Shown one piece after another: positions 1-34,297 of a stretch of DNA of 40,738 bases (positions are counted from its first letter, which is position 1; each line of letters starts with the position of its first letter). The DNA is from a virus. Taxonomy: Duplodnaviria; Heunggongvirae; Uroviricota; Caudoviricetes. The notes beneath the pieces were generated by a model. That model worked only from the letters and a program-made list of their open reading frames with translations, was not told the origin of the DNA and searched no databases. The translations under genes were made by a program, and so were the position numbers. The stretch lies in the IMG/VR virus record IMGVR_UViG_640753023_000013; one strand, 5' to 3'.

Positions 1-516
1 ATGAAATTTAAAAAATGTCTTCTGCCTGTGGCAATGTTAGCGTCATTCACTCTGGCAGGATGCCAGTCAAATGCTGATGATCATGCCGCCGATGTTTATC
101 AAACCGATCAACTGAATACCAAACAAGAAACTAAAACCGTTAATATTATTTCCATTCTTCCCGCAAAAGTTGCCGTAGACAACGCCCAAAATAAACGGAA
201 CGCACAAGCCTTCGGCGCGCTTATTGGCGCTGTCGCTGGCGGTGTTATCGGCCACAACGTCGGGTCTGGCAGCAATTCCGGAACGACGGCAGGTGCAGTT
301 GGCGGCGGAGCTGTAGGCGCGGCAGCGGGTTCTATGGTGAATGATAAAACCTTAGTGGAAGGTGTTTCTTTAACATATAAGGAAGGCACCAAAGTGTATA
401 CCTCCACCCAGGTGGGTAAAGAGTGCCAGTTTACGACAGGTTTAGCCGTTGTTATTACCACGACGTATAACGAAACGCGTATTCAGCCAAATACCAAATG
501 TCCTGAAAAGAGCTAA
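1..516 (+). CDS. Outer-membrane lipoprotein with glycine-zipper segment (SlyB/YcfJ-like); host flank or terminal cargo
   Basis: Signal peptide with lipobox LAGC; Gly/Ala-rich segment GALIGAVAGGVIGHNVG resembling E. coli YcfJ/SlyB glycine zipper. Confidence 0.6.
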   Translation: MKFKKCLLPVAMLASFTLAGCQSNADDHAADVYQTDQLNTKQETKTVNIISILPAKVAVDNAQNKRNAQAFGALIGAVAGGVIGHNVGSGSNSGTTAGAVGGGAVGAAAGSMVNDKTLVEGVSLTYKEGTKVYTSTQVGKECQFTTGLAVVITTTYNETRIQPNTKCPEKS

Positions 517-32047: not shown

Positions 32048-32824
32048 TTACTTGATAAATCCTGCCGCCTTTCCCCGCCTGTATTCCTCCATCAGCCACT
32101 GCGCCGGTGTTATTCCCCCCAGGGTGGCGGCGTTAGGCATGCACCCGAAACTTCGCCCTGGCGGGTGGTAAACGTCTCTCCCTGTGTCCGGAGGCGTACT
32201 CATGGGTTCTGGCTTTGCCTGTATGCTGATCACCGGATCGGGTATCTGCTGTCCGGAAGCCACCTTTTTCGCCCAATCATCGAGCAGCCTGCGCGCGTGT
32301 TTCTCAACCTCAATCTCGCTAAGCTGGCGCTGATACATTGCACGGCGGGTATCACATACGACCCAGTACATAACCGGATGCCGCCACGGGAATCTTTCGG
32401 GACCACCAGGATATAAACTTTTTTCCTTGCTGTACCGGTGAAACTCCGCCATCACATCGTCAATGGTGACGCCAAGAACCATCTTGCTGTCTTTACACCA
32501 CTTGATGAATTGCCCTGGCGACGGCCAGAACGGAGACTCACTGGCGCGGGCGTGGCGCATACCAGCGTTAACCTGTTCCATTGTAGTGATCCCATTCTCC
32601 AGAAACGCAAGCATCCATTGCTTACGGAATTCATTAAGTTTGTTCTGCTCCCTTATGGTCGAAACGCTTGCAGGAAATGCAGCCTGTAACTGGACAAATA
32701 GTTCATTGAAAATTCTAGCAACCTGCTCCTTTTTGCCATTGCTGTCACGCCGCTCTTCATGCACAGCAACACCATGCTCACGTAAGCGATCGTACTCATT
32801 GAGAAGTTCTGGAGTTGATTTCAT
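32048..32824 (-). CDS. Replication protein P-like (DnaB helicase loader)
   Basis: Close resemblance to lambda P (WMLAFLENGITTMEQVNAGMRHAR, PSPGQFIKWC). Confidence 0.8.
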   Translation of the reverse strand: MKSTPELLNEYDRLREHGVAVHEERRDSNGKKEQVARIFNELFVQLQAAFPASVSTIREQNKLNEFRKQWMLAFLENGITTMEQVNAGMRHARASESPFWPSPGQFIKWCKDSKMVLGVTIDDVMAEFHRYSKEKSLYPGGPERFPWRHPVMYWVVCDTRRAMYQRQLSEIEVEKHARRLLDDWAKKVASGQQIPDPVISIQAKPEPMSTPPDTGRDVYHPPGRSFGCMPNAATLGGITPAQWLMEEYRRGKAAGFIK

Positions 32825-33626
32825 CCCACACCCCTTCTATCCAGTCAGTGTTATTCCAGTCAAGCTCATCGCTTTTCCCGGCATTTTTTGATTTTCCCCT
32901 GATATGATTTACGTGCCTGGCGAATTTTTGTTCCCACTGAACCTGCGTGAACACTTTGCCCTCAGCCATCCAGTAATCCCGGAATGCAGCAAGTTCAGCA
33001 GGTGTAAATTCCGGTTCCGGCAGGGCCGTTCCCCACAGCGCAGCACGCCGCCGAAAATCTGGCGACGGTAGCCAGCCATCTGTCATCGGAAATTTCCCGA
33101 TGGGTTCACTCAGGCCATCCAGAAATTCAGGTTCTGCCACCTGCAACGGCGTACTGTTCGCTTCACTGGTCGGAGCACCCTCGCGCACGTGCGCTATGTG
33201 TGGGGTTTTATATATATCTTCCTCTTCCTCTTCCTCTGGTAACTCCTTTTGTAACGCTGTTGGCGTTACTTTTTGCGTTACTCGTTTTCGATGCTCTGCC
33301 ACTCTTCTATTCGTAAGTGCACGTTTTTTCGATGATTCTCCATTATGTCGCTCAAAGTTTGGAAGAATTAGTTTGCCGTCATGATAAGCAAGCCATCCGA
33401 CGCTAATGAGGGCGTCAGCAAATCCTGTAATAAAAGCGAGTCTATCAAGTACTCCTTTTGTAACGCTGCCAGCGTTACCGTCTATTGTTTGCTGGTCAGC
33501 CCATGCCCATATACGAACCAGCTTTCCAAGAACAGCATCTGGATCAATACCCAGAATTTCTGCTATCTGAAAAATTTCAGGTTTATCAGGAGTGATAACT
33601 TCAACCTTAATCCAGCTGCTTGCCAT
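32796..33626 (-). CDS. Replication initiator (O-like) with DnaT-like C-terminal domain
   Basis: C-terminal segment resembling the DnaT-type domain found in phage initiators; acidic EEEEEED linker; internal iteron-like repeats; ATG at 33626. Confidence 0.6.
   Translation of the reverse strand: MASSWIKVEVITPDKPEIFQIAEILGIDPDAVLGKLVRIWAWADQQTIDGNAGSVTKGVLDRLAFITGFADALISVGWLAYHDGKLILPNFERHNGESSKKRALTNRRVAEHRKRVTQKVTPTALQKELPEEEEEEDIYKTPHIAHVREGAPTSEANSTPLQVAEPEFLDGLSEPIGKFPMTDGWLPSPDFRRRAALWGTALPEPEFTPAELAAFRDYWMAEGKVFTQVQWEQKFARHVNHIRGKSKNAGKSDELDWNNTDWIEGVWDEINSRTSQ
33251..33281. repeat. Iteron-like cluster GTAACGC-N5-GCGTTAC plus extra GCGTTAC (candidate ori), copy 1
   Basis: Inverted repeat; an 18-nt segment is repeated at 33451-33468 in a different reading frame. 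Confidence 0.45.
33460..33478. repeat. Iteron-like inverted repeat GTAACGC-N5-GCGTTAC, copy 2
   Basis: 209 bp from copy 1. Confidence 0.45.
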
Positions 33627-33801
33627 AGGTTTCCCCTCTTGCACTCTTTAGTGCACAAGCAAATTCATTACGATGGCGGTTGGCGCTATTCATTGCACAT
33701 TCAACACATGTTCCGTTCAGAACATACCTTTCAGAGAGATGGCCGTGACGGCACCGCTTTCCTGTGAAATAGCGATTTAACCCGGCTTTTGCGGCCTCCA
33801 T
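33607..33801 (-). CDS. Small zinc-ribbon-like protein (CxH...CxxC)
   Basis: 64 aa from the ATG at 33801; weak RBS. Confidence 0.35.
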   Translation of the reverse strand: MEAAKAGLNRYFTGKRCRHGHLSERYVLNGTCVECAMNSANRHRNEFACALKSARGETYGKQLD

Positions 33802-33897
33802 TCTGGTTACTATCTTCAATTTTTCCGCCCCTTTTTGTTATTGATATTGGCTATTTTGCACAATTGGAAAATTTGATCAACCAGATTTGGTTTTTTA

Positions 33898-33920: not shown

Positions 33921-33945
33921 ATGAAAAGACCGCCGGGTGGCGGTC
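33921..33945 (-). terminator. Rho-independent terminator after the cro-like gene
   Basis: GACCGCC-gggt-GGCGGTC with a U-run on the minus strand. Confidence 0.5.
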
Positions 33946-33967
33946 TACAGAGGGTTGTAGCTGGATA

Positions 33968-34198
33968 TCATGAGTAGAAGAAGTATGCCAGTTCTGCTTT
34001 TGAGCGCAGCCATTGTCTTGTTTTACAGGCTTTAAAAAGCCCATTCATCAATACCTTACCTGGCATTTTGCGCTTGCCTGTTAAGTGAGTCTGGATATAG
34101 TGACTCGTCGTTCCGGCTTCCTGTGCGAAGGCTTCACGCTCATCCGGAGTAAGTGCAAGCCAGTGCTTTTTGAAATCGAAATGTCCGTTATCGCTCAT
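33968..34198 (-). CDS. Cro-like small DNA-binding protein
   Basis: 76 aa, divergent from the repressor gene. Confidence 0.55.
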   Translation of the reverse strand: MSDNGHFDFKKHWLALTPDEREAFAQEAGTTSHYIQTHLTGKRKMPGKVLMNGLFKACKTRQWLRSKAELAYFFYS

Positions 34199-34234
34199 AG
34201 CTATTGCCTGATATTTATTTCAGATAATAAATAT

Positions 34235-34297
34235 TCACCCATAAGGTAACAAAAATCAAGGATAGTTACCTATGAGGTGCATTTACCTGTTGGGTAA
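34235..34297. promoter_or_regulatory. Immunity operator cluster: three palindrome sites (34235-34249, one mismatch; 34266-34280, two mismatches; 34283-34297, perfect)
   Basis: Three copies of TTACC-N5-GGTAA in the 154-bp repressor/cro intergenic region. Confidence 0.65.

What the first reader, a model, noticed from the sequence alone, without database searches (positions are those of the whole stretch)
33211..33478. Candidate replication origin inside the O-like gene
Inverted repeats GTAACGC-N5-GCGTTAC occur at 33251 and 33460, with extra half-sites. The 18-nt repeat ACTCCTTTTGTAACGCTG is read in two different frames at the two positions, which argues that the DNA sequence, not the protein, is under selection. 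An AT-rich stretch and a GAA/CTT-rich acidic-linker region adjoin it, like ori-lambda within gene O.
Basis: seen in the sequence. Interest (0 to 1): 0.45.

Follow-up and report, generated by a model that had tools for sequence, protein, structure and literature searches.

The report
Phage replication origin inside initiator gene
A short DNA word (GTAACGC) repeated inside this phage's replication-initiator gene has stayed fixed at the same two places in relatives from several bacterial phyla, even where the protein reads it in a different frame, so it is very probably the origin of replication, built like phage lambda's but around an unrelated initiator.

Summary
GTAACGC-N5-GCGTTAC palindromes lie at 33251-33269 and 33460-33478. 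A further exact half-site lies at 33275 and a one-mismatch one at 33239. The 18-nt repeat is read in two frames.

The host gene (32796-33626, minus strand) encodes a 276-aa initiator. Its N-terminal domain looks like a winged helix and matches no Pfam family. A disordered acidic linker follows, then a DnaT-type ssDNA-binding domain. The next gene is a lambda-P homologue.

In 87 non-redundant homologous loci from at least five phyla:
- Exact half-sites are 82-fold enriched at the same two gene positions (+148..196 and +337..426).
- Synonymous positions are frozen (GGT 73/74, GTT 72/74).
- Three lineages carry a variant half-site at both positions together.
- A GA-repeat polypurine tract starts 1-2 nt after the last half-site.

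This matches ori-lambda (repeated binding sites, then a purine-rich AT tract) at the same position in the gene. The initiator is not a lambda O homologue, there is an extra distal site 209 bp away, and the sites form arrays on a lattice of about 12 bp.

Origin function is inferred, not shown.

The parts
33460..33478 (.). Distal initiator-binding palindrome (cluster A): GTAACGC-TGCCA-GCGTTAC, at +148..+166 of the gene. It doubles as the codons for the near-invariant loop G-N-A-G-S-V-T.
   Evidence: The same position holds half-sites in homologues. Codon freezing: GGT 73/74, AAC 74/74, GTT 72/74. Synonymous identity is 0.8 against a baseline of about 0.4.
33239..33281 (.). Proximal array of four half-sites on a 12-bp lattice (cluster B): GTAACTC (33239, 1 mismatch), GTAACGC (33251), GCGTTAC (33263), GCGTTAC (33275). 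In the gene's orientation this is F-F-R-r at +345..+387. It lies in the linker-coding region and reads V-T-Q-K-V-T-P-T-A-L-Q-K-E-L.
   Evidence: Homologues have 2-6 half-sites here, in frames 0 and 1. Synonymous identity is 0.86-0.97.
33217..33237 (-). Polypurine tract AGAGGAAGAGGAAGAGGAAGA on the coding strand, starting 1 nt after the last half-site. It encodes EEEEEE and is the proposed unwinding or ssDNA-binding element.
   Evidence: It is invariant in the DNA of diverged homologues. In other lineages it has period 5 and reads EKRREEK.
33206..33217 (.). Short AT run (TTTTATATATAT on +; ATATATATAAAA on the coding strand) next to the polypurine tract.
   Evidence: Most homologues have AT-rich GATATAAA / AATAAAGA at this position.
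33183..33194 (.). Perfect 12-bp GC-rich palindrome GCGCACGTGCGC beyond the AT run. Whether it belongs to the origin is uncertain.
   Evidence: A GCGCG-rich block recurs here in many homologues, in different frames. It is shared with the pPE4 C-module.
32796..33626 (-). Initiator gene (276 aa from ATG 33626). The N-terminal domain (aa 10-90) looks like a winged helix. A basic helix follows (91-118), then a disordered acidic linker (119-178) and a DnaT-type ssDNA-binding domain (179-250).
32048..32824 (-). Lambda-P-family helicase-loader gene, overlapping the end of the initiator gene by 29 nt.
   Evidence: PF06992, E 1.7e-55.
34224..34252 (-). pR-like promoter candidate upstream of the cro-like gene. 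It would drive leftward transcription through the origin. This is a consensus match only.
   Evidence: 9 of 12 matches. Gene order.

Best explanation
Window 33183-33478 is the phage's origin of bidirectional (theta) replication, embedded in its own initiator gene.

Proposed mechanism:
1. The initiator's N-terminal winged-helix-like domain recognises the 7-bp half-site GTAACGC. Dimers or oligomers occupy the proximal array (33239-33281) and the distal palindrome (33460-33478). The sites lie on a common lattice of about 12 bp, so the intervening ~190 bp of lower-GC DNA is looped or wrapped, as in an O-some.
2. Binding, together with supercoiling and rightward-operon transcription, destabilises the adjoining polypurine/AT element (33206-33237).
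3. The C-terminal DnaT-type ssDNA-binding domain and the lambda-P-type loader encoded next then deliver host DnaB.

Shown here:
- the elements exist;
- they are under strong DNA-level selection;
- they travel with this N-domain and with nothing else;
- they change in concert at the two positions;
- the layout matches ori-lambda.

Inferred, not shown:
- which protein binds the sites;
- looping of the DNA between the clusters;
- unwinding at the GA/AT tract;
- initiation of replication at this place.
For: Enrichment and position:
- Half-sites are enriched in the window.
- In 87 non-redundant homologous loci the density is 12.6 per kb inside +120..+440 against 0.15 per kb in about 460 kb of flanks.
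- 77 of the 87 loci have exact half-sites in both clusters.
- Hosts include Enterobacterales, Pseudomonas, Burkholderiales, Xanthomonadales, Alphaproteobacteria, Verrucomicrobiota, Planctomycetota and an Ignavibacteriae MAG.

DNA-level selection:
- Gly50 is GGT in 73 of 74 loci (background 20%). Val55 is GTT in 72 of 74 (background 26%). Asn51 is AAC in 74 of 74. Codon 54 ends in GC in 70 of 74, across Ser, Gly and Arg.
- Cluster B is read as NAxSVT in many lineages but as VTPTALQ here.
- Synonymous-codon identity is 0.8-1.0 at the elements against about 0.4 elsewhere.

One shared specificity:
- L059 has GTTGCGC/GCGCAAC eight times, in both clusters and nowhere else on its contig.
- L081 (CTAACGC) and L057 (GTCACGC) also carry their variant in both clusters.

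The cassette follows the N-domain:
- The C-domain and the downstream gene vary: lambda-P, DnaC/IstB-like, or DnaB.
- Phage pPE4 has the same DnaT C-module but a different N-domain. It has no GTAACGC and carries other repeats instead.

The polypurine tract starts 1-2 nt after the last half-site. It is the most purine-rich 30-mer of the whole locus in 69 of 87 loci.

Comparison with lambda:
- Lambda's iterons lie at +348..+432 of gene O and are followed by a purine-rich AT tract (PMC7466680).
- Here the sites lie at +345..+387 and the purine tract at +389..+409.

Protein:
- The N-domain model is confident, and its weak fold matches are mostly winged-helix domains.
Against: - There is no experimental evidence for binding or for initiation in any member of this family in the literature searched.
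- The AT-rich element is short (12 nt), and the GA tract is only 38% GC-poor, so it is not a classic DUE.
- There are no DnaA boxes or IHF sites.
- The half-site lattice of about 11.5-12 bp does not match the 10.5-bp helical repeat.
- The 87 loci are related to each other, so the counts are not independent events.
Confidence: 0.75

Rival explanations
1. The sites are operators. The initiator, or another regulator, binds inside and near its own gene to autoregulate or to block transcription. Replication starts elsewhere.
For: - Inverted repeats are the usual operator form for plasmid Rep dimers (general knowledge).
- Rac-type, Serratia and Erwinia homologues carry a third palindrome at -43/-31, just upstream of the start codon. 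That position suits autoregulation.
Against: - The window has no upstream palindrome.
- The arrays mix direct and inverted half-sites, up to 6 per cluster.
- A conserved polypurine/AT element abuts them. An operator needs no such element.
- The position equals that of lambda's iterons.
- No other repeat cluster in the window offers an alternative origin.
Confidence: 0.1
2. The half-sites are bound by some other factor, a host protein or another phage protein, for recombination, packaging or partition.
For: No binding data exist, so the identity of the binder is inferred only.
Against: - Hosts span several phyla, so a shared host factor with an identical 7-bp specificity is unlikely.
- Neighbouring genes differ among loci: a 70-aa ORF here, ydaT in Rac-type loci, Rha in Pusillimonas. 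The C-domains and loaders also differ. Only the N-domain is constant.
- A phage with the same C-module but another N-domain lacks the sites.
Confidence: 0.06
3. The palindromes act as nucleic-acid hairpins, either as mRNA structure or as an antisense terminator, since 33251-33269 is followed by TTTTT on the + strand.
For: - Each palindrome folds at -7.4 to -7.6 kcal/mol, with z-scores of -3.9 to -5.
- The terminator scan flagged both.
Against: - Many half-sites are direct repeats (F-F-F) or are 23-45 nt apart, so they do not pair.
- All stems keep one identical sequence. When the sequence changes, it changes to the same new word in both clusters. That is the signature of recognition by a protein, not of base pairing alone.
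- The A5 spacer is specific to one lineage.
- There is no Rfam match.
Confidence: 0.03
4. It is chance, or a by-product of a repeated peptide motif (NAxSVT).
For: The distal palindrome overlaps a highly conserved peptide.
Against: - Shuffles do not reproduce the count.
- Synonymous positions are frozen.
- The proximal copy is read in another frame in this phage, as VTPTALQ.
Confidence: 0.01

Closest known systems
ori-lambda within gene O of lambdoid phages (lambda, Stx phages P27 and 933W)
   Same: - The origin lies inside the initiator gene, at the boundary between the DNA-binding N-domain and the linker. Lambda's iterons lie at +348..+432; the sites here lie at +345..+387.
- The binding sites are 19-bp inverted repeats.
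- A purine-rich, AT-containing tract follows immediately on the coding strand.
- A P-family loader gene comes next.
- The gene sits in the rightward early operon, after cro- and cII-position genes.

   Different: - The initiator N-domain matches no Pfam family and has no detectable homology to Phage_rep_O.
- The recognition word is different.
- The sites are arrays of 7-bp half-sites on a ~12-bp lattice, not four tandem 19-mers.
- An extra distal palindrome lies 209 bp upstream, inside the DNA-binding-domain coding region.
- The purine tract is a GA repeat rather than A-rich.
- The C-domain is DnaT-type.
E. coli/Salmonella primosomal protein DnaT (PDB 4ou6, 6aep)
   Different: - Only that domain is shared. 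The NCBIfam DnaT equivalog scores 92 bits against a cut-off of 201.
- The N-terminal two-thirds are unrelated.
- The database name 'primosomal protein I' over-annotates the protein.
Rac prophage replication module (ydaU-ydaV, oriJ)
   Same: - The genomic position and operon layout are the same.
- A Rac-like element of E. coli 442/2 carries a YdaU with this N-domain and these half-sites.
- K-12 ydaU has its own internal repeats in a similar layout, one distal copy plus a proximal cluster.
   Different: - K-12 YdaU is a DUF1376 protein with no similarity to this one.
- oriJ has not been mapped at sequence level in any paper I could read. It is therefore not a direct precedent.
Iteron-type plasmid replicons (winged-helix Rep proteins, iterons plus a DUE)
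   Same: - Repeated initiator sites lie next to an unwinding element.
- Inverted-repeat sites may double as operators.
- Initiators of this kind contact ssDNA in the DUE (PMC4081077, listed; abstract only).
   Different: - Here the sites are inside the coding sequence.
- The half-sites are 7 bp long.

Membership tests
Lambda-type phage origin (ori inside the initiator gene) | Repeated initiator-binding sites located within the initiator's own coding sequence, at the junction of N-domain and linker | tested here: met
   Half-sites lie at +148..+166 and +345..+387 of a 276-codon gene. The domain boundary comes from the AF2 model. Lambda's iterons lie at +348..+432.
Lambda-type phage origin (ori inside the initiator gene) | Binding sites are ~19-bp imperfect inverted repeats, in several copies | tested here: met
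   There are two 19-bp palindromes plus two extra half-sites. The arrangement is bipartite, not four tandem copies.
Lambda-type phage origin (ori inside the initiator gene) | Adjacent AT-rich unwinding region with purine/pyrimidine strand asymmetry | tested here: inconclusive
   A 21-nt all-purine GA tract plus a 12-nt AT run directly abut the last half-site, and this is conserved in homologues. The tract is less AT-rich than lambda's. Unwinding was not tested.
Lambda-type phage origin (ori inside the initiator gene) | Initiator is a lambda O homologue (Pfam PF04492, Phage_rep_O) | tested here: not met
   There is no PF04492 hit even at E <= 10. hhalign against lambda O gives a probability of 0.1%. 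Lambda O itself hits PF04492 at 5.7e-36.
Lambda-type phage origin (ori inside the initiator gene) | Helicase-loader gene of the lambda P family immediately downstream | tested here: met
   PF06992, E 1.7e-55.
Lambda-type phage origin (ori inside the initiator gene) | The initiator binds the repeats, and the segment supports initiator- and loader-dependent replication | not testable with these tools
   This needs footprinting and origin cloning. Indirect support comes from the concerted half-site changes and the linkage to the N-domain.
DnaT (primosomal protein I) | Full-length match to the DnaT equivalog model | tested here: not met
   NCBIfam NF002770 scores 92.3 bits against a cut-off of 201, over aa 177-258 only.
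DnaT (primosomal protein I) | DnaT C-terminal ssDNA-binding three-helix domain | tested here: met
YdaU / DUF1376 (Rac K-12 replication protein) | DUF1376 N-terminal domain | tested here: not met
   There is no Pfam hit. BLASTP and hhalign against K-12 YdaU find nothing. K-12 YdaU hits PF07120.
PHROG 2509 'replication initiation protein' | Full-length profile match | tested here: met
   E 9.8e-130 over aa 7-274. The N-domain alone gives 1.4e-71. The family name is an annotation, not a tested function.

The most novel reading that the evidence does not exclude
This may be an ancient origin/initiator cassette that moves between phyla, with two unusual properties.

- The initiator's binding word is also the codons of its own near-invariant G-N-A-x-S-V-T loop. 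The DNA site and the protein that reads it would then constrain each other. The same word is re-used in another frame in the linker.
- The conserved GA-repeat tract abutting the last site is not a passive AT-rich DUE. It would be a periodic ssDNA-binding platform for the initiator, analogous to DnaA-trios. The bipartite sites on a ~12-bp lattice would wrap about 200 bp of DNA.
Probability: 0.2. Interest if true: 0.65.

Novelty: new variant of a known kind. Interest (0 to 1): 0.5.

Why it matters
It gives a concrete, testable origin for the Uetakevirus (epsilon15-like) phages of E. coli. The same holds for a large initiator family that databases label only 'primosomal protein I' or 'hypothetical'. 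More than 600 viral contigs matched the family's conserved peptide patterns in IMG/VR, and prophages occur in several phyla.

The 7-bp word, its frozen codons and its concerted variants make a clean natural example of DNA-binding sites and protein code overlapping. They also provide ready-made specificity variants (GTTGCGC, GTCACGC, CTAACGC) for studying how initiator and origin co-evolve.

In practice, the cassette predicts replication incompatibility groups among these prophages. It also offers a compact origin-plus-initiator module for vectors in poorly tractable hosts such as Akkermansia and Planctomycetes.

Tried and rejected
- oriJ of Rac as a direct precedent. K-12 YdaU proved unrelated (DUF1376). 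The literature I could reach gives no sequence-level map of oriJ. A whole-word search for 'oriJ' returned mostly an author's name.
- Literature on this family's origin. Searches by sequence word, by DnaT plus prophage, and by Uetakevirus, epsilon15, phiV10 and TL-2011b found nothing on an origin. The vB_EcoP_ZX5 paper does not discuss one.
- DnaA boxes, IHF sites and GATC clusters in 32950-33700: none of note.
- Known RNA families: none.
- H-DNA as a universal role for the purine tract. The (AGAAG)n form is a mirror repeat, but the enterobacterial (GAGGAA)n form is not (my inspection). The idea was dropped.
- Specificity-determining residues in lineages with variant half-sites. The alignment is too sparse to name any.
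- Plasmid evidence for autonomous replication. Only two PLSDB records carry the domain, and the one inspected is a circular phage genome, so this is weak.

Full report
**1. What is in the window.**

The finding lies inside a minus-strand gene. The ORF listing starts it at GTG 33644. Homologues and the annotation of the 99.9%-identical phage vB_EcoP_ZX5 start it at ATG 33626, which gives 276 aa (32796-33626).

The window is essentially a Uetakevirus (epsilon15-like) temperate podophage genome. It is 99.9% identical to ZX5, 99.8% to HEMP4 and 98% to TL-2011b.

Read leftward, the gene order is:
- a repressor (divergent);
- a cro-position gene;
- a 70-aa ORF;
- this gene;
- a lambda-P-family gene (PF06992, E 1.7e-55);
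- a DUF1064 gene.

**2. Check of the observation.**

- The palindromes GTAACGC-N5-GCGTTAC lie at 33251-33269 and 33460-33478.
- A third exact half-site lies at 33275-33281, and a one-mismatch half-site (GTAACTC) at 33239-33245. The proximal cluster is therefore four half-sites spaced exactly 12 bp apart.
- The 7-mer occurs 11 times in the window against 3.8 +/- 2.0 expected, and 0 of 100 shuffles reach 11. Five of the 11 fall within 228 bp.
- The two copies of the 18-nt repeat are 209 nt apart, so they are read in different frames: SVTKGV and TALQKEL.
- The (TCTTCC)3.5 tract is at 33217-33237.
- The AT-rich element is only a 12-nt run, inside a broader zone of 38-43% GC.

**3. The protein.**

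Pfam and NCBIfam recognise only a C-terminal DnaT ssDNA-binding domain (aa 185-255). The DnaT equivalog model is far below its cut-off, so the database name 'primosomal protein I' is an over-annotation. PHROG 2509, 'replication initiation protein', matches over the full length.

The AlphaFold2 model has these parts:
- a confident helical domain with a beta-hairpin (aa 10-90, pLDDT 80-95);
- a basic helix (91-118);
- a disordered acidic linker (119-178);
- the DnaT-like domain.

I found no homology to lambda O or to K-12 YdaU.

**4. Comparative evidence.**

*Sampling.* Homologues of the N-domain were collected from genomes and viral contigs and reduced to 87 non-redundant loci. Hosts include Enterobacterales, Pseudomonas, Burkholderiales, Xanthomonadales, an alphaproteobacterial MAG, Verrucomicrobiota (Akkermansia), Planctomycetota (Stieleria, Novipirellula) and an Ignavibacteriae MAG.

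*(a) Position.* Exact half-sites cluster at +148..+196 and +337..+426 from the start codon in nearly all loci.
- Density is 12.6 per kb there against 0.15 per kb in about 460 kb of flanking DNA.
- 77 of the 87 loci have exact sites in both clusters, and the mean is 4 per locus.

*(b) Synonymous freezing at the distal site.*
- Gly50 is GGT in 73 of 74 loci (background 20%).
- Asn51 is AAC in 74 of 74.
- Val55 is GTT in 72 of 74 (background 26%).
- Codon 54 ends in GC in 70 of 74, across Ser, Gly and Arg.
- This holds in genomes of 56-67% GC.

*(c) Frame switching.* In many lineages the proximal cluster is read as ...N-A-x-S-V-T..., the same frame as the distal site. In this phage it reads V-T-P-T-A-L-Q. 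Half-sites occur in frames 0 and 1.

*(d) Concerted change.*
- A Planctomycetales contig (L059) has GTTGCGC/GCGCAAC eight times. Four copies are in each cluster and none elsewhere on the contig.
- L081 has CTAACGC/GCGTTAG in both clusters.
- L057 has GTCACGC in both.

This is what a single protein with altered specificity would produce. Independent hairpins would not.

*(e) Linkage.* Only the N-domain is constant.
- C-domains and downstream genes vary: lambda-P, DnaC/IstB-like, or DnaB helicase.
- Upstream genes differ.
- Actinobacillus phage pPE4 shares the DnaT C-module at about 84% DNA identity but has another N-domain. It has no GTAACGC in 3.3 kb and carries different repeats at the equivalent place.

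*(f) Synonymous-codon identity.* Among ten colinear enterobacterial homologues the baseline is about 0.35-0.47. It rises to 0.8 over the distal palindrome and to 0.86-1.0 from the proximal array through the purine tract.

*(g) The purine tract.*
- It starts 1-2 nt after the last half-site in most loci.
- It is the most purine-rich 30-mer of the whole ~5.5-kb locus in 69 of 87 loci.
- It has period 5 (AGAGA/AGAAG, read as EKRREEK) in most phyla and period 6 (GAGGAA, read as EEEEEE) in Enterobacterales.
- An AT-rich stretch of 8-15 nt follows it, and often a C-rich and then a GCGCG-rich block.

*(h) Spacing.* Neighbouring half-sites are 12, 11, 23, 33-35 or 45 bp apart. Distances between clusters fall on the same lattice of about 11.5-12 bp. 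These counts are not phylogenetically independent.

**5. Comparison with lambda, on actual sequence.**

In lambda the four iterons are annotated at +348..+432 of gene O. They are followed within a few bases by acaaaagaaaaaagaaaagatta, and gene P comes next. The literature describes the lambda origin as follows (PMC7466680):
- the iterons are 19-bp imperfect inverted repeats;
- the AT-rich tract next to them is needed for unwinding;
- O also binds that tract as ssDNA;
- two iterons plus the AT tract are the minimal unit for unwinding.

Here the proximal array is at +345..+387, the purine tract at +389..+409 and the AT run at +409..+420. The order, the position in the gene, the site length and the neighbouring loader gene all agree with lambda.

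The differences are:
- an unrelated DNA-binding domain;
- half-site arrays rather than tandem 19-mers;
- a GA tract rather than an A tract;
- the distal palindrome inside the N-domain coding region;
- a DnaT-type C-domain.

**6. Mechanism proposed.**

See the best explanation. The steps are binding of the N-domain to GTAACGC, bridging or wrapping between the two clusters, opening at the GA/AT element, stabilisation by the DnaT-type ssDNA-binding domain, and loading of DnaB through the P-type protein. All of these are inferences from anatomy and analogy.

The pairing of C-domain type with loader type fits the lambda rule that the initiator's C-domain contacts the loader. The DnaT-like C-domain goes with a P-family loader in the window, L133 and L011. 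Other C-domains go with DnaC-like proteins or DnaB.

**7. Rivals.**

- Autoregulatory operator (0.10). This is plausible for the extra upstream palindrome of Rac-type loci. It does not explain the abutting purine/AT element.
- Another binding factor (0.06). The phylum-wide host range and the exclusive linkage to the N-domain argue against it.
- Hairpins (0.03). The folds are real. Direct-repeat arrays and concerted word changes argue against a role for them, and there is no Rfam match.
- Chance or a peptide motif (0.01). This is excluded.

**8. Novelty and score.**

An origin inside the initiator gene is textbook for lambdoid phages, so the kind is known. I found no description of this family's origin, including in the paper on the near-identical phage ZX5. 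The library lacks most subscription journals, so an earlier description cannot be excluded.

Several features make it a new variant rather than another copy of ori-lambda:
- the unrelated initiator domain;
- the bipartite half-site architecture;
- the GA-repeat element;
- the cross-phylum invariance of a 7-bp word that is also the code for an invariant protein loop.

Interest is 0.5. The comparative signal is unusually clean and it yields directly testable constructs. The central idea will not surprise a specialist in phage replication.

Noticed in passing
L165 2761-3063 (E. coli K-12 ydaU, NC_000913.3 about 1421260-1421562): K-12 Rac ydaU has an unrelated, DUF1376-type N-domain. It carries its own five-copy repeat AGATGTTCAA inside the gene, at +141 and at +352..+430. 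That is the same 'one distal plus a proximal cluster' layout as here, so it is a candidate sequence-level location for oriJ.
   Followed up: partly
L004 1256-2380 (Actinobacillus phage vB_Apl-pPE4 'primosomal protein'): It has the same DnaT C-module and the same junction, TATATAAACCCCACACATAACGCGCG, as the window. Its N-domain and its repeats (GATAAGGC/CCTAAGG at +477..+520) are different. The module exchange point therefore appears to lie at the AT run of the origin.
   Followed up: partly
L003, L006, L012, L013, L015, L016, L133 and others, -43/-31 (L012/L013: -32/-20) relative to the initiator start codon: Rac-type, Serratia, Erwinia and Shigella homologues have a third GTAACGC-N5-GCGTTAC palindrome just upstream of the start codon. 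It may be an autoregulatory operator. The window has none.
   Followed up: no
window 33309-33338 (codons 97-106, ESSKKRALTN): Synonymous-site conservation peaks here (0.73 against a baseline of about 0.4) with no exact half-site. Rac-type loci have a GCGTTAC nearby, at +334. It may be a degenerate site or a further element.
   Followed up: no
window 33927-33946 (- strand): A terminator-like hairpin (8-bp stem with 6 GC pairs, then a T-run) lies between the cro-position gene (33968-34198) and the 70-aa Cys/His-rich ORF (33607-33819). This is a tR1-like position upstream of the replication genes.
   Followed up: no
window 33183-33194: A perfect 12-bp palindrome, GCGCACGTGCGC, lies just beyond the AT run. 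A GCGCG-rich block recurs at this place in many homologues, in different reading frames.
   Followed up: partly
window 33626 vs 33644: The mechanical ORF call starts at GTG 33644. Homologues and the ZX5 annotation support ATG 33626 (MASSWIK...).
   Followed up: yes
L168 (NC_015459.1, Pusillimonas sp. T7-7 41-kb 'plasmid'): This record, filed as a plasmid, is a circular HK97-like siphophage genome. It carries this initiator family together with a DnaC-like ATPase, and MOB-suite assigns it rep_cluster_1580.
   Followed up: partly
L061 (Streptomyces hayashii contig JAHHIU010000566.1, 1551 bp): This short contig is attributed to Streptomyces, but its initiator and half-site pattern are identical in type to those of the Pseudomonas loci. 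It is probably assembly contamination.
   Followed up: no
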